From the IMG/VR virus record IMGVR_UViG_3300031999_000001, positions 1 to 64,000 of that record: DNA of 64,000 nucleotides; one strand, written 5' to 3'. This stretch comes from a virus (Duplodnaviria > Heunggongvirae > Uroviricota > Caudoviricetes). This document shows, piece after piece, positions 3,076 to 29,692 of this stretch (its first letter is position 1; each line of letters starts with the position of its first letter). A program made the position numbers and the translations under genes. The notes beneath the pieces were generated by a model. The model saw only the letters and a list, made by a program, of their open reading frames with translations. It searched no databases and was not told where the DNA came from.

Positions 3076-3880
3076 TTTTTGGTTCTTTTAATATTTTAAT
3101 AATATCTTCAATAGGTGTTGTTTTATTGATTTCATTACATTGACTCCATTTGTTGAATTCTCCAAAATAATCAAAAAGAATATTATCACAACCATTATAA
3201 TATCCCATAAAAGTATTGTTTTTTGAAGAATAACCAATTTTCTTACCATATCCATAAGCGATTGCAATTTCACCTTCTTCTTCATTAACACTAACATCTT
3301 GTCCTGTATAGGCAGCAGCAGTTGAAAGTAAGGATGATATGAAATTAATATTTTTGCTTTTTACATTAACAATAAATCCATTAGAACGTAATGCATCTGT
3401 TAAATTTTTACTAAATTCACATGTATTGAAATTCTTAGAGAAATTAGGGTCACTAATTTCAAATTTAATATTGAATTTGTTTTCCTTTTTAATTTTAAAT
3501 TGATATGAAAGATCAATTTTTTTGCCGGGATGATACCAACTTTTGTTAAAATCAACAATAGTACCTGCTGGAATATTCATACAATTCAATGTTCTTCTAA
3601 TACAAGACTTTAAACTAATGTCTTTCCAACGTGTCCAATACAACATACAATTCTTATAATAATTATGTATAGTATCAATAAATCTGATATCGGTATAATA
3701 ACAAGGCAATCCCTTATATAATTTTTCTTCTTCAATTTCCGAATTATAGACAAAGTTATGTGATTTGCAGTATGCAAAATCTCCCTCAATTTCAATGGAA
3801 TTAAATCTATTTACTCTATATCCTTTTGGTGCTTGATGTCCTAATTTATTTTGTTTCATTATTATTTGTTTTAGTATCAA
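3065..3880 (-). CDS. hypothetical protein
   Basis: ORF only. Confidence 0.4.
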   Translation of the reverse strand: MILKQIIMKQNKLGHQAPKGYRVNRFNSIEIEGDFAYCKSHNFVYNSEIEEEKLYKGLPCYYTDIRFIDTIHNYYKNCMLYWTRWKDISLKSCIRRTLNCMNIPAGTIVDFNKSWYHPGKKIDLSYQFKIKKENKFNIKFEISDPNFSKNFNTCEFSKNLTDALRSNGFIVNVKSKNINFISSLLSTAAAYTGQDVSVNEEEGEIAIAYGYGKKIGYSSKNNTFMGYYNGCDNILFDYFGEFNKWSQCNEINKTTPIEDIIKILKEPKNDN

Positions 3881-4264: not shown

Positions 4265-4642
4265 TTATCTGTATTTTGTTATAAAGTAAAAATTGAATTT
4301 GCCTTCCAAATTAAAATGTTTTTTCACCGAACCTTCGATATATTCTTTTTCAATATCTGTTAATTCAGGTATTGTAATTGGTTTGCCTGAACCTAAATAT
4401 TCACCATCACTTGATTTATCTAATATTCTGCCAATAATTATAAATTTGCCATCACGACCAGCAGATAAACAAAAAATTCCTTCTTTATGTTTAATTTTTG
4501 TATCAAAAGCACTATCATCCATAAATTCTTCGAAAGTTTCATTAAAACTTTTTTCAGTTTTTTCTTGCCATTCATTGCGCCACGTATATGGAACTAATAT
4601 TCCATACATAAAATATTGATTAATTTGTGTACTCATTTGCAC
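4265..4642 (-). CDS. hypothetical protein
   Basis: ORF only. Confidence 0.35.
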   Translation of the reverse strand: MQMSTQINQYFMYGILVPYTWRNEWQEKTEKSFNETFEEFMDDSAFDTKIKHKEGIFCLSAGRDGKFIIIGRILDKSSDGEYLGSGKPITIPELTDIEKEYIEGSVKKHFNLEGKFNFYFITKYR

Positions 4643-17763: not shown

Positions 17764-18138
17764 TTATTCGGGTGTTTCGGTTAATGTTAATAAATCATTA
17801 AGTGAAGACATACTTCTCATTTTGAATGCTGTTTCCAACGTAGGTTTTAAATCACTTGGGCAATCATCTAAATTAGATTTGCTGTCAATTAAAAATTGAA
17901 CCTTACTGTTATCATCAAGCCGAAGGGTTGTAATAACAATTTGTTCTTTTTTCTCAAAATCATATTGCATCACAATACGAATTCTTTTTGAAAATTCATT
18001 TGTAATGCCTATTCTTTTAATATTCCTTTCAACCTGAAATTGAGAAGTAGTGAGATAAATATTACCCTCAATCAAGCCTTCATATAAGAATATTTTTTCG
18101 CCTTCTTCTGTTTCAATTTTATATTTCATGTCATACAA
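17764..18138 (-). CDS. hypothetical protein
   Basis: ORF only; it sits between the RNA ligase and the structured-RNA locus. Confidence 0.35.
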   Translation of the reverse strand: MYDMKYKIETEEGEKIFLYEGLIEGNIYLTTSQFQVERNIKRIGITNEFSKRIRIVMQYDFEKKEQIVITTLRLDDNSKVQFLIDSKSNLDDCPSDLKPTLETAFKMRSMSSLNDLLTLTETPE

Positions 18139-18293
18139 ATTTTAATTAAAAAAACCAGTTTTTATCTTCATCAAAACGGGCAAAACTTAGGTTTACGAAA
18201 TTTTTCCTACCGCCATTCCTTCTTTCTGGGCATTCAGTCCCTTTCAGGCACGTTATCTGGCATTGAACACGTAGCCACCGTGTTAGGATTCGT

Positions 18294-18408
18294 GGTCGGA
18301 GCAAGGTTCGAACTTGCATGATGATATTAACTCTACAACGGGCGTATCTCTTCGTAGTCACGTAATCATCTTATGTAGGTAAGCGACTGCCAATTTCGCC
18401 ATCCAACC
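18294..18408 (-). ncRNA. tRNA-like element with non-canonical length (~115 nt) inside a 510 bp ORF-poor, GC-enriched locus (18139..18648)
   Basis: Minus strand reads GGTTGGA-T-G-GCGA-AATTGGCAG-TCGC ... GCAAG-TTCGAAC-CTTGC-TCCGACC-A. This gives a 7-bp acceptor stem (one G-U), U8, a D-stem with A14/G18G19/A21, and a canonical T-arm (G53, T54-T55-C56-G57-A58, C61). An extra ~40 nt hairpin (GATGATTA ... TAATATCATC) replaces a normal anticodon arm. No CCA is encoded. Confidence 0.3.
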
Positions 18409-18648
18409 ATCAAAAAATCTTTCTGCCCGTTTCCACACGGAATACCAGAGTTGCCCTCTATTATGTACTTCGGTCTGCCCTTACCAGACTGCTTCACTTG
18501 GCGAAGGGTATTTTACGGCAAACAACGCCCCTTGGAATAGAACTGTAATCGAGCCACGCCTCACCTTTCCCTGTGACTCTGGTTTTTTAGGGTGTAATTA
18601 CTGTTTGCTTTCAGCAGAAAGACTTTATTTTCAAAGAACTAATACTCC

Positions 18649-19197
18649 TTAATTTTTCTTAAACAAATCAACCTCATTTTCCTGTCCGGTTTTATAGGCA
18701 TCTTCGGTTTTAAGCGATTTGATAATCACGATTGCCAAATCTTCACGTTTGCCTATAACAAGTTTCTTCGGGAAAGTCATACGCATATTTTTATGTTGAC
18801 GATCAATATCAATAAGTTTTTGCTGTTCAATAAAAAAACCTTCACGTTGTCCTTCAATTGATGCCATAAGTTTTTCATACAATTCAATTTTAAATTCTGG
18901 ATTATGTTCAGTAACCCATTTCATAAATGTTTGTTGACCCTGACCATCATCAGAATAACGACCTTCCATAAGTAATGGATATACTTCTTTAAAAGCATCT
19001 TTGTATTGATCAGCAACCTGTGCTTGCTGTTGAAGTATTTTCCATACTTTGTCAAAATATGCTGCACATGATTCTTGCTGGGCACTACCTCTGTTGCGGA
19101 GTTTAATTTCAGAATTGCTTAGACCTATTGCCCAAAAAGCAAAACTTATGCCCAATATTAATACAAGTCCTAATGTAATTAATGTTCCTGTTTTCAT
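18649..19197 (-). CDS. membrane-anchored hypothetical protein (N-terminal TM)
   Basis: Hydrophobic N-terminus MKTGTLITLGLVLILGISFAFWAIGL. Confidence 0.4.
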   Translation of the reverse strand: MKTGTLITLGLVLILGISFAFWAIGLSNSEIKLRNRGSAQQESCAAYFDKVWKILQQQAQVADQYKDAFKEVYPLLMEGRYSDDGQGQQTFMKWVTEHNPEFKIELYEKLMASIEGQREGFFIEQQKLIDIDRQHKNMRMTFPKKLVIGKREDLAIVIIKSLKTEDAYKTGQENEVDLFKKN

Positions 19198-21300: not shown

Positions 21301-22935
21301 TTATAAATCTACTTTAAAACGTAATGCAACTGGAAAACGTGGTTTTTTGTTTTTTCTTGTATAACCTTGATACTGAACTGTTACTATTCTACCAATAACT
21401 AATGATTTGTCATCAGCATATAATTTAAGGTCATCCATTTTACCTTTGAGTTTACAATCAAATGTAATACCTGCTGGTAACTGTTGGTCTTCTTTGGTTC
21501 TTTCACAAATGAACACAGCTTTACCTGCCATGATACCTTTTGTACCTATCTTTATGTCAACAACACGAAATTCGTCATCATCAAATACTTTAACTTTTTG
21601 CAAATCGTATGAACGTTTGTTCACATACATTCCATCAAAGTTTCTGACAATTGCACCTTCATATCCCATTTCCATGAAGTCTTCATAGGCTTGCATCAGT
21701 TCCTCTTTACTGTTAACAATTCTTGATTCAACAATATGAATTGGAGAATTTTCAAATATTGAACGCCATCCTTCAAGTATTAAATACCTATCATAATTTG
21801 TAAGATTTGGAAGTGCTAAATCATAAACATGATATTGAATAACTTCATAACCATCTTGTGGTTCATCGGATGTTATTAAAGAAGTTAGTTTTTCGAATGT
21901 TATTTTTTCTTTTGGAAAATTAAGTACTGCATGATCACCAAATAATTCGAATGCTTTTTTATCATATGCTTTTGCAGCATCTTCAGCAGTATTAAAATAA
22001 CCAATATGAATTTTTTTATAATCATGAGTAATCTGAGCATGCCAATTTTCATCTCTTTTAAAAAACATAACACCTTTATATCCACTTGTATTGTTTATTC
22101 TTTTTTCAGAATTTGCACCATTATTTGATTCAGTAACTAATCTTAGATTACTTTTTCTTGCATCTAATTTATTTCTATTAATATGATCAACATCACTTTC
22201 TGGTAAATCTAAAACTAATTTATGTATATAATAAATTTTATGTTTATATGTTGTAATGGGATATCCATTTCCAGAGATTGTAATTTTATTACCTTGTAAT
22301 TTAGGTAAATCTTCTTCATCAAGAAAAACAATATTTCCATTAATATTAAATTCAAGAAATGGTATTTCTATTGATTTATTTTCTTGAATATTAATATCTG
22401 GATGCCATAATTCACCATCAAATCTATCAGCAAGTCCACAATTTTCTAAAGTATTGACAATATGAGGAATTGTTAAAATTTGTTTACGGGTTCTACTCCA
22501 CATAGTTACCTTTCCAATGTCATACTGACTGGTGCAACGGTGTCCATCCAATTTAGGTTGTGCTATTGCAGGAAATTTAATTTTATGCCCTTGTTCCCAA
22601 AATTTATGGGCAAGAATTGGAAATACACCACCTTCAATAATTGCATCGGTTGTACCTGCTTGTGCATCTTCAATACTCTGAACATAACCTTTTTTGAGTT
22701 GTTTATCCCATCTGGCTTTGGCTTGAAATATACCTTGTTCAATTGGAGTTGTTTCATTTGATCTACCAGTATTTTTACCTGATAAAACCTGTTCATGGCT
22801 GTATTGAATTTTACCCCCAACCTGACCAAATCTGTTGATTATGGTAGAGATGCCATTGATTTCATCAACACTGACTGTCCATTCTTGAATAGCACCAGTA
22901 CTGGTTTTCTTGTAAAGTTTTGGAAATTCTTTCAT
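21301..22935 (-). CDS. ATP-dependent DNA ligase carrying an in-frame HNH-AP2 endonuclease domain insertion
   Basis: Ligase motifs I KLDGHR, III FDGELW, IIIa YHVYDL, IV EGAIVR and V LQKVK, plus an OB-fold tail. About 180 aa (nt ~21858..22398) between motifs III and IIIa form an HNH (VDHINRNKLDARKSNLR) plus AP2 (SGYKGV...WHAQI...IGYFNTAEDAAKAYD) unit. Confidence 0.75.
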   Translation of the reverse strand: MKEFPKLYKKTSTGAIQEWTVSVDEINGISTIINRFGQVGGKIQYSHEQVLSGKNTGRSNETTPIEQGIFQAKARWDKQLKKGYVQSIEDAQAGTTDAIIEGGVFPILAHKFWEQGHKIKFPAIAQPKLDGHRCTSQYDIGKVTMWSRTRKQILTIPHIVNTLENCGLADRFDGELWHPDINIQENKSIEIPFLEFNINGNIVFLDEEDLPKLQGNKITISGNGYPITTYKHKIYYIHKLVLDLPESDVDHINRNKLDARKSNLRLVTESNNGANSEKRINNTSGYKGVMFFKRDENWHAQITHDYKKIHIGYFNTAEDAAKAYDKKAFELFGDHAVLNFPKEKITFEKLTSLITSDEPQDGYEVIQYHVYDLALPNLTNYDRYLILEGWRSIFENSPIHIVESRIVNSKEELMQAYEDFMEMGYEGAIVRNFDGMYVNKRSYDLQKVKVFDDDEFRVVDIKIGTKGIMAGKAVFICERTKEDQQLPAGITFDCKLKGKMDDLKLYADDKSLVIGRIVTVQYQGYTRKNKKPRFPVALRFKVDL

Positions 22936-28934: not shown

Positions 28935-28945
28935 AATATTAATTG

Positions 28946-29122
28946 TTAATTAAGACTTGGATGTTCAATAACTTCATATCCAAAATCACGCAGAATTTCA
29001 CGCACAACATACCACTCGCCATTAAATTCCAATGCATCAACAGTTGATTGTGGTGCATTACTGTGAAATTTAATAATCTTTTCATTTATATCATCATGAT
29101 ATGTGCGTAATTCAATTTTCAT
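28946..29122 (-). CDS. small hypothetical protein (58 aa)
   Basis: Below the ORF-track threshold; promoter copy F sits 9 nt upstream. Confidence 0.25.
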   Translation of the reverse strand: MKIELRTYHDDINEKIIKFHSNAPQSTVDALEFNGEWYVVREILRDFGYEVIEHPSLN

Positions 29123-29130
29123 AATAATGT

Positions 29131-29161
29131 TTTATACGAATTATATTATAAAAGGTTACAT
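29131..29161 (-). promoter_or_regulatory. conserved phage promoter-like motif, copy F (ATGTAA-N19-TATAAA)
   Basis: TGTAAC and TTCGTATA cores conserved. Confidence 0.4.
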
Positions 29162-29692
29162 TTTTTCTTGTTTTATTATCTTAAGTTCGTACAAATATAG
29201 AAAAAGAAATTAATAAAACAATAAAAAGTATTTATCTTTTTAGGAATATTTGTAATAAGATCAAAAATAATTCGTATTATTGTAAAAATTATAAATATTC
29301 AGATTTATAAAAATTATCTTATATTTAATTAATTTTAAAATGAATGAATCATGGTGGTTTTTAATTGGAATTGCATCATTTATAATAATTGCGTTTACTT
29401 TATTAAAATATGGACTTTTTACTCAATCTAAAAGAAAAAAGAAATTGTAATTAGTATGCAGAGTATGTTGCTAAACAATTAAATAAGAAAACTGTATGGG
29501 TAGAATAAATGATGATTATGGTCCTGATTTAAAAAAGGAAGATATTAATATATATTTTAATATACATATTAATATTGAGATGAGTAAAGAAAATGTGTTA
29601 AATAAAAATGAACCTGACAATATATGTATAATATAATACATATTTCTTGCATTTTCAGATAATATGGTTTATATTAGCACAAATTTTAAATT

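What the first reader, a model, noticed from the sequence alone, without database searches (positions are those of the whole stretch)
18139..18648. ORF-poor, GC-enriched 510 bp locus containing a tRNA-like element with canonical T-arm and acceptor stem but an insertion in place of the anticodon arm
The only sizeable stretch without a credible ORF sits just past the Thg1/RNA-ligase pair and is visibly GC-richer than its surroundings. On the minus strand, 18408..18294 reads GGTTGGA-U8-G-[GCGA AATTGGCAG TCGC]-...-[GCAAG TTCGAAC CTTGC]-TCCGACC-A. That gives a 7-bp acceptor stem, a D-arm with A14/GG/A21, and a textbook T-arm (G53-TΨCGAAC-C61). The acceptor 3' strand follows the T-stem directly, exactly as in tRNA. 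The segment between D- and T-arms is 65 nt instead of ~22 and folds into a long hairpin (GATGATTA/TAATATCATC). It could be a tRNA with a small intron or insertion, a tRNA-like decoy or regulatory element, or a disrupted tRNA gene. The other ~390 bp (18409..18648 and 18139..18290) also contain several GC-rich hairpins and may hold further structured RNA. The only ORF here (18146..18361) is Arg-rich and looks like an artefact of the GC content.
Basis: seen in the sequence. Interest (0 to 1): 0.7.

Follow-up and report, generated by a model that had tools for sequence, protein, structure and literature searches.

The report
Anticodon-less tRNA-Leu mimic in phage RNA operon
A phage gene encodes an RNA with the acceptor stem, D-arm and T-arm of a leucine tRNA but an unrelated, lineage-specific 65-base insert where the anticodon should be, and it sits between two other conserved structured RNAs in what looks like a previously undescribed non-coding RNA operon of large environmental phages.

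Summary
On the minus strand, 18408..18293 carries a 7-bp acceptor stem, a tRNA-Leu-type D-arm, a canonical T-arm and A73. A 65-nt segment replaces the anticodon and variable arms. A strict pattern finds this one site in both strands of the 64-kb window, against 0.02 per shuffle.

Relatives keep the frame with compensatory changes, but the central cassette is unalignable even in the closest relative. No anticodon stem-loop can be recovered, and ARAGORN's "tRNA-Tyr with intron" call recurs in 75% of shuffled cassettes. So this is a non-decoding tRNA-Leu mimic, not a demonstrable intron-containing tRNA.

It is the middle of three RNAs:
- a ~215-nt upstream RNA closed by a covarying stem and a U-run;
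- the mimic;
- a 148-nt trailer RNA that starts directly after A73 and ends at a terminator.

The trailer RNA is a new family with no Rfam match. It has one copy in each of 46 phage or metagenome loci searched and a fully covarying helix.

My best guess at function (inferred, about 0.45) is that the mimic acts as an RNase P / RNase Z processing and stabilising hub, and as a scaffold that displays a variable cassette. The suggested link to Thg1 is not supported.

The parts
18293..18408 (-). tRNA-Leu-derived tRNA mimic, 116 nt: acceptor 5' 18408-18402; U8 and G9 18401-18400; D-arm 18399-18383; cassette 18382-18318; T-arm 18317-18301; acceptor 3' 18300-18294; A73 18293
   Evidence: Read directly and reproduced by the fold. 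It is the unique pattern hit in the window, against 0.02 expected. The frame is conserved in relatives. T-stem covariation is shown and acceptor pairing. The D-arm best matches tRNA-Leu(UAA).
18318..18382 (-). 65-nt central cassette that replaces the anticodon and variable arms; lineage-specific
   Evidence: Identity to the cassettes of 7 related frames equals the shuffled level. There is no match or complement elsewhere in the window or in the fetched loci. The hairpin is not thermodynamically special. No recoverable anticodon stem-loop exists; the ARAGORN -i call is non-specific.
18145..18292 (-). Conserved trailer RNA that starts immediately after A73. P1 hairpin 18284-18279 / 18271-18266. 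Long-range P2 18261-18258 / 18215-18212. Invariant single-stranded blocks GAUAACGUGCC, AGGAAA and AAACCU. Terminator hairpin plus U-run 18154-18148.
   Evidence: Alignment of 29 copies. P2 has 4/4 pairs with compensatory changes and none broken, and the terminator covaries. Covariance model R1 finds exactly one copy in each of 46 loci, with the window copy at 146 bits. No Rfam hit.
18412..18626 (-). Upstream structured RNA. Closing stem AAAGUCUUUCUGC (18626-18614) with GCAGAAAGA(UUU) (18426-18418 plus the start of the U-run). U-run 18417-18412, three bases before the mimic.
   Evidence: MFE pairs the two ends. The same architecture (closing stem with a different sequence, U-run, then a tRNA-like 5' end) occurs in 7 units of 6 loci, with dG from -10.8 to -17.3. 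The scaffold is homologous in L071, L072 and L067.
18545..18601 (-). Inner module of the upstream RNA: ACACCCUAAAAAACCAGAGUCACAGGGAAAGGUGAGGCGUGGCUC (18595-18551), enclosed by the stem GUAAU (18601-18597) / AUUAC (18549-18545)
   Evidence: The same module is present in L016 inside a stem of different sequence (UGAUU/AAUCA). L071 has GUAAC/GUUAC around a different module. The pseudoknot-compatible pairing was seen by eye only and was not tested.
18627..18639 (-). Motif GTTCTTTGAAAAT at the head of the RNA unit, 9 nt after the stop codon of the 182-aa gene
   Evidence: It recurs before RNA units and after tRNA-likes or terminators in L007, L009, L064, L067, L069, L034 and L051. It is not enriched in the window as a whole. 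Its role is unknown; promoter or processing site is a guess.

Best explanation
The element is a phage gene for a tRNA-shaped RNA derived from tRNA-Leu. It keeps everything that makes the L-shaped body and the acceptor end:
- a 7-bp acceptor stem;
- U8;
- a Leu-type D-arm with A14, G18, G19 and A21;
- a T-arm with G53, T54, Psi55, C56, A58 and C61;
- discriminator A73.

Its anticodon arm and variable arm are replaced by a 65-nt cassette that differs completely between related phages. It therefore cannot read a codon.

It is the middle gene of a three-part non-coding unit on the minus strand:
- a ~215-nt structured RNA closed by a terminal stem and a U-run;
- the mimic;
- a 148-nt conserved trailer RNA that begins at the base after A73 and ends at an intrinsic terminator.

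The most likely mechanism is as follows. The unit is transcribed as one precursor. Host RNase P cuts at 18409/18408. RNase Z, or an equivalent 3' endonuclease, cuts after A73 at 18293/18292. The mimic would then work as a built-in processing and stabilising module. It would release the upstream RNA and give the trailer RNA its exact 5' end. It would itself persist as a stable tRNA-like scaffold. That scaffold is probably CCA-tailed. It may also be leucylated, because LeuRS does not read the anticodon and both A73 and the Leu-type D-arm are kept. The scaffold would display the variable cassette.

Shown: the anatomy, the homology of the frame, covariation, the absence of an anticodon loop, the non-coding nature, and the adjacency rule between the tRNA 3' end and the trailer RNA.

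Inferred: co-transcription, the cleavage sites, CCA addition or charging, and what the cassette and the trailer RNA do.
For: - Anatomy and significance.
- Frame conserved, cassette not. Window against 7 relatives gives 18-23 of 26 identical in the 5' frame and 17-21 of 25 in the 3' frame, while cassette identity equals the shuffled level.
- The closest relative found is L075, whose flanking protein is 93% identical. It has the same frame (T-stem GCAAG/CTTGC) around an unrelated 50-nt centre.
- T-stem, in an alignment anchored only on the trailer-RNA start: 93% of cells paired against 66.5% in shuffles, 5/5 pairs with double changes, and slid controls at 38-66%.
- Acceptor: where the 5' strand is located only by its Leu-type D-arm, 5/5 loci pair 7/7, using four different stem sequences. 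Most mislocated controls pair 0-5 of 7.
- Rfam tRNA model: the orthologue L009 e3 scores 45.6 bits and L009 e2 scores 32.9 bits. In e3 the insertion falls in the anticodon loop; in e2 it replaces the anticodon-arm region.
- The D-arm best matches a genuine tRNA-Leu(UAA) among 49 canonical tRNAs in the fetched loci (compare the L025 and L032 sequences).
- The trailer RNA starts at N73+1 in every locus. This holds whether the preceding gene is a mimic, a normal 72-nt tRNA-Glu (L021, L027) or an intron-containing tRNA-Gln (L017). That is what a tRNA-3'-end-defined RNA would look like.
- Closing stem plus U-run directly upstream of the tRNA-like 5' end in 6 of 7 units.
- Sister families have 'anticodon' hairpins capped by GGAA, GGGA or GGGAA loops, so they are clearly non-decoding.
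Against: - There are no expression or end-mapping data. Co-transcription and processing are inferred from geometry alone.
- A pure processing signal would not need a Leu-type D-arm and A73 to be kept across distant phages. It would also not explain wholesale cassette replacement between close relatives, or cassette modules conserved across phages (family C in L006, L050, L052 and L063; family D in L016, L018 and L069). The cassette therefore probably has a function of its own that I cannot name.
- The stem plus U-run just upstream looks like an intrinsic terminator. If it is efficient, the mimic would be left without an obvious promoter.
- The window copy fails the Rfam tRNA model outright.
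Confidence: 0.45

Rival explanations
1. Anti-defence decoy or sponge. The mimic (and its sister mimics in related phages) binds and blocks or diverts host proteins that recognise the tRNA body, such as immune tRNA nucleases, or tRNA-modifying or -charging enzymes. The hypervariable cassette reflects an arms race. The neighbouring RNA ligase and Thg1-like enzyme repair real tRNAs in the same conflict. This is compatible with the processing-hub role.
For: Cassettes are replaced wholesale between close relatives while the frame is kept. Several mimics with one frame and different cassettes can occur in one genome: at least 7 in L060 and 3 in L009. The locus lies in a tRNA-repair neighbourhood, with an RNA ligase in most relatives and Thg1 here. 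tRNA-targeting immunity and phage tRNA countermeasures are established (papers listed).
Against: No target is known. The cassettes do not resemble anticodon arms, which many anticodon nucleases need. The cassette has no complementarity to anything in the window or the fetched loci. There is no experimental data.
Confidence: 0.2
2. Functional tRNA gene interrupted by a small intron. The 65-nt region contains an intron that is removed by an unknown endonuclease and sealed by the adjacent phage RNA ligase, giving a decoding tRNA. ARAGORN suggests Tyr-GUA; the frame suggests Leu.
For: ARAGORN with -i calls tRNA-Tyr(gta) with a 39-nt intron. Large Bacteroidota phages do carry intron-containing tRNAs (Lak phages). 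L017 has a tRNA-Gln with a 562-nt intron bearing an HNH ORF at 37/38. L009 e3 aligns to the tRNA model with a 43-nt insertion in the anticodon loop, and its 5' side reads UUUAAAG, like a Leu-UAA loop. An RNA ligase gene is nearby.
Against: The ARAGORN call is reproduced in 226 of 300 constructs with a shuffled cassette. It needs a mismatched stem, no nucleotide 26, and a non-canonical 31/32 insertion site. Predicted intron positions differ from locus to locus (29 to 40). No AGGUA-type partner exists for the bases after the D-arm. The Lak tRNA-Tyr example I read keeps an intact anticodon stem. Sister mimics have tetraloop-capped 'anticodon' hairpins. No bulge-helix-bulge motif is evident. No Rfam intron family matches.
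Confidence: 0.12
3. Decaying tRNA-Leu pseudogene whose anticodon region was destroyed by an insertion. It is retained only because it has not yet been deleted.
For: There is no anticodon loop. The window copy fails the Rfam tRNA model and default ARAGORN. The cassette has no detectable conservation or exceptional stability.
Against: All tertiary-interaction nucleotides are kept, and both stems are maintained through compensatory changes across many diverged phages. The junction with the conserved trailer RNA is fixed to the base. The sequence is identical in five samples. A compact phage genome argues against retained junk.
Confidence: 0.08
4. The cassettes, and the large inserts inside the upstream stem-loop, are small mobile or recombining RNA/DNA modules that colonise hairpin loops of this RNA island. 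The tRNA frame is merely a tolerant landing site.
For: The same hairpin is a plain 12-nt-loop stem in L007 but holds inserts of roughly 60 to 220 nt in the other loci, within units of 43-254 nt overall. Identical modules appear in different frames and phages: family D in L016, L018 and L069, and the pseudoknot-like module in the window and L016. These genomes are rich in HNH and intein insertions.
Against: No terminal repeats, target duplications or associated transposase/endonuclease were seen for the short cassettes. The family C module was not found elsewhere in IMG/VR. The window cassette has no second copy.
Confidence: 0.1

Closest known systems
Bacterial type II tRNA-Leu
   Same: 7-bp acceptor stem, U8, D-arm G-GCG-AAAUUGG(U/C)AG(A/U)-CGC, canonical T-arm and A73. 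The window D-arm best matches a genuine tRNA-Leu(UAA) among 49 canonical tRNAs (L025 and L032 sequences).
   Different: It has no 5-bp anticodon stem, no 7-nt loop and no ordered variable arm. 65 unrelated nucleotides stand in their place. It fails the Rfam tRNA model and default ARAGORN.
Intron-containing tRNAs of Lak megaphages (Devoto et al. 2019, PMC6784885)
   Same: Oversized tRNA genes in large phages of Bacteroidota, with inserts of tens to about 100 nt that match no Rfam family.
   Different: The Lak tRNA-Tyr example I read keeps an intact anticodon stem and anticodon, with the insert at the canonical 37/38 position. The window element has no recoverable anticodon stem-loop.
tRNA-like / small-RNA fusions processed by tRNA enzymes: MHV68 TMERs (vtRNA-pre-miRNA) and MALAT1-mascRNA (from my own knowledge)
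   Same: A non-decoding tRNA-shaped module is fused to another functional RNA, and the junction lies exactly at the tRNA-like end, where RNase P or RNase Z cut.
   Different: Those are eukaryotic or herpesviral. Here the system is a bacteriophage one, processing is only inferred, and the tRNA-like carries a large variable cassette.
E. coli 3'ETS-leuZ, a small RNA made from the trailer of a tRNA-Leu operon (from my own knowledge)
   Same: A functional RNA that runs from just after a tRNA 3' end to the operon's intrinsic terminator.
   Different: The sequence and structure are unrelated. The phage trailer RNA is longer (about 148 nt), highly structured and conserved across many phages. Sponge activity was not tested.
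tmRNA tRNA-like domain and YrlA (Y RNA-like) tRNA mimics
   Same: tRNA mimics that lack an anticodon arm.
   Different: There are no hits to the Rfam tmRNA, permuted tmRNA or YrlA models in the window, and ARAGORN finds no tmRNA. There is no G3.U70, and I saw no tag reading frame or pseudoknot series. YrlA has the opposite topology, with a closed acceptor end (from my own knowledge).
GOLLD and ROOL large phage RNAs found next to tRNA genes
   Same: Phage-borne structured RNAs associated with tRNA genes, of unknown function.
   Different: No match to either Rfam model even at E<=10. The RNAs here are much smaller (about 148 and 215 nt).

Membership tests
tRNA (Rfam RF00005 / ARAGORN) | 7-bp acceptor stem with the 3' strand directly after the T-stem | tested here: met
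   GGTTGGA/TCCGACC, 7/7 pairs. Conserved with compensatory changes.
tRNA (Rfam RF00005 / ARAGORN) | D-arm with A14, G18, G19 and A21, and T-arm with G53-T54-Psi55-C56-A58-C61 | tested here: met
   Read directly. T-stem covariation: 93% paired, 5/5 pairs with double changes.
tRNA (Rfam RF00005 / ARAGORN) | 5-bp anticodon stem with a 7-nt loop (U33, purine 37) | tested here: not met
   No such hairpin follows the D-arm. Only a forced ARAGORN -i solution exists, and it recurs in 75% of shuffles.
tRNA (Rfam RF00005 / ARAGORN) | Covariance-model score at or above the gathering threshold (29 bits) | tested here: not met
   The window copy gets no tRNA hit even at E<=10. Default ARAGORN finds 0 genes. 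Orthologues L009 e3 (45.6 bits) and e2 (32.9 bits) do pass.
Protein-spliced or Lak-type intron-containing tRNA | Intact anticodon stem flanking an insert in the anticodon loop (canonically 37/38) | tested here: not met
   Absent in the window element. Present in the Lak example and in the L017 tRNA-Gln.
Protein-spliced or Lak-type intron-containing tRNA | Bulge-helix-bulge or other recognisable splice motif; spliced product | not testable with these tools
   No BHB is evident by eye. RNA data are required.
Group I / group II intron | Catalytic-core covariance-model match | tested here: not met
   No Rfam intron hit in 18050-18750 at E<=10. 65 nt is too short.
tmRNA | tRNA-like domain plus tag ORF and pseudoknots; ARAGORN or Rfam detection | tested here: not met
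   ARAGORN tmRNA mode and the Rfam tmRNA and permuted-tmRNA models give nothing in the window.
YrlA / Y RNA-like | Match to RF02553; associated Ro (TROVE) protein | tested here: not met
   No hit in the window. L009 gives only 16.9 bits against a gathering score of 69. No TROVE domain was found among the ten neighbouring ORFs scanned.
GOLLD / ROOL | Match to the Rfam models | tested here: not met
   No hit at the gathering threshold or at E<=10.
tRNA-trailer (3'ETS-type) or tRNA-linked small RNA | RNA begins at the base after the tRNA discriminator and ends at an intrinsic terminator | tested here: met
   The junction N73|CGA is fixed in the aligned loci, although the preceding tRNA-like is shifted by 1 nt or degenerate in 5 of 26. 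The terminator hairpin covaries and is followed by a U-run.
tRNA-trailer (3'ETS-type) or tRNA-linked small RNA | Release by RNase Z or RNase E and accumulation as a separate RNA | not testable with these tools
   Needs 5'/3' end mapping.

The most novel reading that the evidence does not exclude
The Leu-type frames with exchangeable centres would be a new class of phage RNA. A constant tRNA scaffold would be processed, CCA-tailed and perhaps leucylated by host enzymes, and it would display a rapidly exchanged cassette. Related genomes carry one to at least seven such frames. The class would be deployed in phage-host conflict, for example as decoys or inhibitors of tRNA-directed immunity or as charged non-decoding tRNAs. 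It would act together with a new, highly conserved 148-nt trailer RNA and a modular upstream RNA, forming a dedicated non-coding RNA island.
Probability: 0.25. Interest if true: 0.85.

Novelty: new variant of a known kind. Interest (0 to 1): 0.62.

Why it matters
Phage tRNA genes are usually read as codon-usage helpers or as replacements for tRNAs destroyed by host defences. Here a tRNA-Leu body is kept under clear selection while its decoding part is swapped for unrelated sequence. The same design recurs in many large environmental phages, sometimes several times per genome, so a function other than decoding is likely.

The locus also defines a new conserved RNA family with covariation support, the trailer RNA. 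It also gives a simple rule, that the trailer RNA starts at the base after the tRNA discriminator. That rule makes the processing model directly testable.

Standard annotation misses all of this. ARAGORN and Rfam return nothing for the window, and a spurious 71-aa ORF covers part of the locus.

Tried and rejected
- Rfam at the gathering threshold on the whole window, and at E<=10 on 18050-18750, gave only a chance snoRNA match. This rejects tmRNA, YrlA, GOLLD/ROOL, group I/II introns, riboswitches, RNase P and SRP for all three RNAs.
- Default ARAGORN found nothing.
- ARAGORN -i called tRNA-Tyr(gta). I rejected this as evidence after the shuffled-cassette control, where 226 of 300 constructs were still called. 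Intron positions are also inconsistent across homologues.
- BLAST of the 510 bp and of 7 kb of context against 50,697 phage records found no relative of the locus.
- Searches of IMG/VR with the two flanking proteins and with the exact T-arm/acceptor string found nothing.
- The trailer-RNA pattern has 0 hits in 185,579 bacterial and archaeal genomes. It therefore appears to be phage-only, and no host can be inferred from it.
- The family C cassette pattern has 0 hits in IMG/VR.
- I searched the window and all loci for a target or second copy of the window cassette, and only chance 10-12-mers turned up.
- The motif GTTCTTTGAAA is not enriched in the window (5 matches against 4.6 expected). The sigma-70 promoter and terminator scan was uninformative.
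- I considered a resemblance of GGAAAGUCCG...AAACCUGCUUA in divergent trailer RNAs to RNase P CR-I/CR-V, and of AGGAAGGAAAG to SRP domain IV. I dropped both because the spacing is wrong and no covariance-model hit exists.
- I looked for k-turn or box C/D-like GAUGA/GUGA motifs in the cassettes. These were not convincing.
- Six literature searches found no description of this class. The nearest published case is the 'enigmatic introns' of Lak phages.
Full report
**Observation**

- GGTTGGA (18408-18402) pairs 7/7 with TCCGACC (18300-18294).
- U8 and G9 follow the 5' strand.
- The D-arm is GCGA-AATTGGCAG-TCGC (18399-18383).
- The T-arm is GCAAG-TTCGAAC-CTTGC (18317-18301), and it abuts the 3' acceptor strand.
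- The discriminator is A at 18293.
- 65 nt (18382-18318) lie where about 22 would be expected.

The MFE fold recovers the frame and the insert hairpin. I scanned both strands of the 64-kb window with a strict pattern: a 7-bp acceptor stem, U8, GG in the D-loop, a 5-bp T-stem closed by G53-C61, and a TTYRA loop. It hits only this site, and 100 composition-preserving shuffles give a mean of 0.02 hits. GC is 0.43-0.47 here against about 0.29 in the flanks.

Three corrections apply.
- Other ORF-free gaps exist, for example 28935-29692, but they are AT-rich.
- The insert hairpin is no more stable than shuffled sequence (z = -0.65).
- Default ARAGORN and Rfam find nothing in the window.

The element is identical in contigs from four other samples.

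**Context**

The window is from a large phage. It carries a Dda-like helicase and SbcCD-like nucleases. It also carries an FtsH-like protease, a DNA ligase with an HNH insert, an R2K ATP-grasp protein, a Thg1-like protein and an RNA ligase.

The gap lies between a 182-aa gene (PHROG 1383) and a 121-124-aa gene, all on the minus strand. The 182-aa protein has more than 170 homologues on metagenomic contigs of up to 345 kb. Fetching their loci showed a gene-free, RNA-rich gap of 260-1200 bp after this gene in most relatives. The gap is absent in L076.

**Related loci: frame conserved, centre not**

The gaps contain one to four tRNA-like genes. The Rfam tRNA model scores the orthologue L009 e3 at 45.6 bits with a 43-nt insertion in the anticodon loop. 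It scores L009 e2 at 32.9 bits.

A conserved RNA (described below) begins directly after the discriminator, so I used it as a pairing-independent anchor. In that alignment the T-stem is paired in 93% of cells, against 66.5% in shuffles and 38-66% when partners are slid. All 5 pairs show double changes. I then located the 5' acceptor strand only by its Leu-type D-arm. It pairs 7/7 with the anchored 3' strand in 5 of 5 loci, using four different stem sequences. Most mislocated controls pair 0-5 of 7.

The window's D-arm is that of bacterial tRNA-Leu. Among 49 canonical tRNAs in the fetched loci, the best match is tRNA-Leu(UAA) (compare the genuine tRNA-Leu genes in L025 and L032). A73 fits this identity as well.

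Against seven relatives, the 5' frame is 18-23 of 26 identical and the 3' frame is 17-21 of 25 identical. The central cassettes are no more similar than shuffled sequence. Even L075, whose flanking protein is 93% identical, has the same frame around an unrelated 50-nt centre. One marine contig (L060) carries at least seven such frames, most with essentially the same acceptor stem, and with centres from about 22 to 121 nt, alongside normal tRNAs.

**Is it an intron-containing tRNA?**

ARAGORN in intron mode calls tRNA-Tyr(gta) with a 39-nt intron at position 31/32. I kept the frame and shuffled the 65-nt centre. ARAGORN still called an intron-tRNA in 226 of 300 constructs, so the call carries no information.

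Several other points argue the same way.
- Predicted intron positions differ among homologues, from 29 to 40.
- No partner exists for the bases following the D-arm.
- Sister families have 'anticodon' hairpins capped by GGAA, GGGA or GGGAA loops.
- The published Lak-phage tRNA-Tyr intron I read keeps an intact anticodon stem with the insert at 37/38. So does the L017 tRNA-Gln, whose intron carries an HNH ORF.

I therefore read the window element as a non-decoding tRNA-Leu mimic. Splicing is not excluded, but nothing supports it.

**The rest of the 510 bp**

(a) Trailer RNA, 18292-18145. A pattern taken from window/L009/L006 conservation retrieved 5 IMG/VR loci and 45 metagenome stretches, at least 8 of which are GC-rich chance matches.

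An alignment of 29 distinct copies shows these features:
- an invariant P1 hairpin (AACACG-GUGGCUA-CGUGUU);
- a long-range P2 helix in which all 4 pairs show compensatory changes and none is broken;
- invariant single-stranded blocks GAUAACGUGCC, AGGAAA and AAACCU;
- a covarying terminator hairpin with a U-run.

A covariance model finds exactly one copy in each of 46 loci. The window copy scores 146 bits. The non-training loci L075 and L071 score 102 and 43 bits. There is no match in 185,579 bacterial or archaeal genomes and none in Rfam.

The RNA starts at N73+1 (CGA...) in the aligned copies. This holds whether the preceding gene is a mimic, a normal tRNA-Glu (L021, L027) or the intron-bearing tRNA-Gln (L017).

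(b) Upstream RNA, 18626-18412. Its ends form a stem (AAAGUCUUUCUGC with GCAGAAAGAUUU) followed by six U, three bases before the mimic.

The same design occurs in 7 units of 6 loci: a closing stem of different sequence (dG -10.8 to -17.3), then a U-run, then in 6 of the 7 units a tRNA-like 5' end within 2-5 nt. Total unit length ranges from 43 nt (a plain hairpin in L007) to 254 nt. An inner module (18595-18551) recurs in L016 inside a stem of different sequence.

(c) The motif GTTCTTTGAAAAT (18639-18627) heads the unit here and in relatives. It is not enriched in the window.

(d) The 71-aa Arg-rich ORF overlaps RNAs whose homologues differ by indels that are not multiples of three and by compensatory pairs. 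It is an artefact.

**Mechanism**

Shown:
- a conserved L-shape-competent tRNA-Leu frame without an anticodon;
- a hypervariable centre;
- a fixed junction to a conserved, structured trailer RNA that ends in a terminator;
- a stem-closed upstream RNA abutting the 5' end.

Inferred: one precursor is cut by RNase P at 18409/18408 and by RNase Z (or an equivalent) after A73. The mimic would then punctuate and stabilise a polycistronic non-coding transcript, and would itself persist as a scaffold displaying its cassette. The model follows established knowledge of tRNA end processing. It also draws on tRNA-linked RNAs known elsewhere: MHV68 TMERs, MALAT1-mascRNA and E. coli 3'ETS-leuZ, all cited from my own knowledge.

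Two things hint at a further function. LeuRS does not read the anticodon, yet A73 and the Leu-type D-arm are retained. Cassettes are exchanged wholesale and sometimes shared between phages. The mimic may therefore act as a charged non-decoding tRNA, or as a decoy in tRNA-centred phage-host conflict. I cannot test either idea.

The Thg1 link is weak, because relatives carry the island without Thg1. An RNA ligase is often nearby.

**Comparison and novelty**

The element fails membership of tRNA proper (no anticodon arm, no covariance-model hit). It also fails for intron-containing tRNAs, tmRNA, YrlA, GOLLD/ROOL and group I/II introns. It works most like tRNA-like modules fused to other small RNAs.

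Six literature searches found no description of this class. I rate it a new variant of a known kind, a tRNA mimic or tRNA-linked small RNA. It has a realistic chance of representing a new class of cassette-bearing tRNA scaffolds, together with a new trailer-RNA family.

Noticed in passing
window 18145-18292 (-); L006, L009, L014-L022, L024, L026-L034, L037, L040-L048, L050-L053, L055, L057, L059-L063, L069, L071, L075: A new conserved RNA family of about 148-175 nt begins at the base after a tRNA or tRNA-like discriminator and ends at a terminator. It has one copy per locus, a fully covarying long-range helix, and the invariant blocks GAUAACGUGCC and AAACCU. It has no Rfam match and was not found in bacterial genomes.
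   Followed up: yes
window 18412-18626 (-); L071 3053-3300; L069 3246-3410 and 3684-3940; L009 4332-4430; L007 4247-4295: An upstream RNA is closed by a covarying terminal stem plus a U-run directly before the tRNA-like gene. The unit ranges from a plain 43-nt hairpin to 254 nt, as if modules were inserted into a hairpin loop.
   Followed up: partly
window 18545-18601 (-); L016 about 10-65: A pseudoknot-compatible module (ACACCCUAAAAAACCAGAGUCACAGGGAAAGGUGAGGCGUGGCUC) is shared by the window and L016. The enclosing stems have different sequences.
   Followed up: no
L009 4222-4326; L075 774-877; L064 3347-3450; L071 3308-3420; L033, L037, L055, L061: A second tRNA-like family (GCGUGG...CUGCGC-U, about 105 nt) has its 'anticodon' hairpin capped by a GGAA, GGGA or GGGAA loop. 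Its long extra arm presents the palindrome GGUGCACC, which could form a kissing dimer.
   Followed up: partly
L060 2385-5401 (-): A marine contig carries at least seven tRNA-Leu-type frames, most with essentially the same acceptor stem (AGUCAGG/CCUGACU). Their central cassettes differ and run from about 22 to 121 nt. They are interspersed with normal tRNAs.
   Followed up: partly
L006, L050, L052, L063 (tRNA-likes just upstream of the trailer RNA): A cassette module (GAAAGUGAGCCAAUCUAACC-hairpin-GGUGAAAAGGAUGAAC) is conserved across four phages inside closing stems that covary. It was not found elsewhere in IMG/VR.
   Followed up: partly
L017 (-), about 549-1188 of the 1.2-kb stretch upstream of the trailer RNA: A tRNA-Gln(UUG) carries a 562-nt intron at position 37/38. 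The intron encodes an HNH-type ORF and is closed by an 11-bp stem, with no room for a group I core.
   Followed up: no
L007 about 4300-4400; L064 about 3255-3335; L067 about 3640-3720: A third conserved small RNA (GUGACUGCCGAAUCAGGUUAAGAU...GUCAGAGGUAGAAGUCAC, about 85 nt) occurs in the same island of some relatives. It is absent from the window.
   Followed up: no
L019, L041, L048, L052 (about 40-130 nt downstream of the trailer-RNA core): In some loci the trailer RNA is followed by a further GC-rich hairpin (GGGAGACUCCC...GGGAGUCUCC) and a second U-run.
   Followed up: no
window 21301-22935 (-): The ATP-dependent DNA ligase ORF carries HNH and AP2 domains inserted between its ligase domains. 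The homologue in L006 instead carries an intein with a LAGLIDADG domain.
   Followed up: no
window 28935-29692: This is the largest internal ORF-free stretch (758 bp). It is very AT-rich (GC 0.21) and was not examined.
   Followed up: no
window 18627-18639 (-) and related loci: The motif GTTCTTTGAAAAT recurs at the head of RNA units and after tRNA-likes or terminators in related phages, and also in marine tRNA arrays (L027). It may be a promoter or a processing signal. It is not enriched in the window overall.
   Followed up: partly
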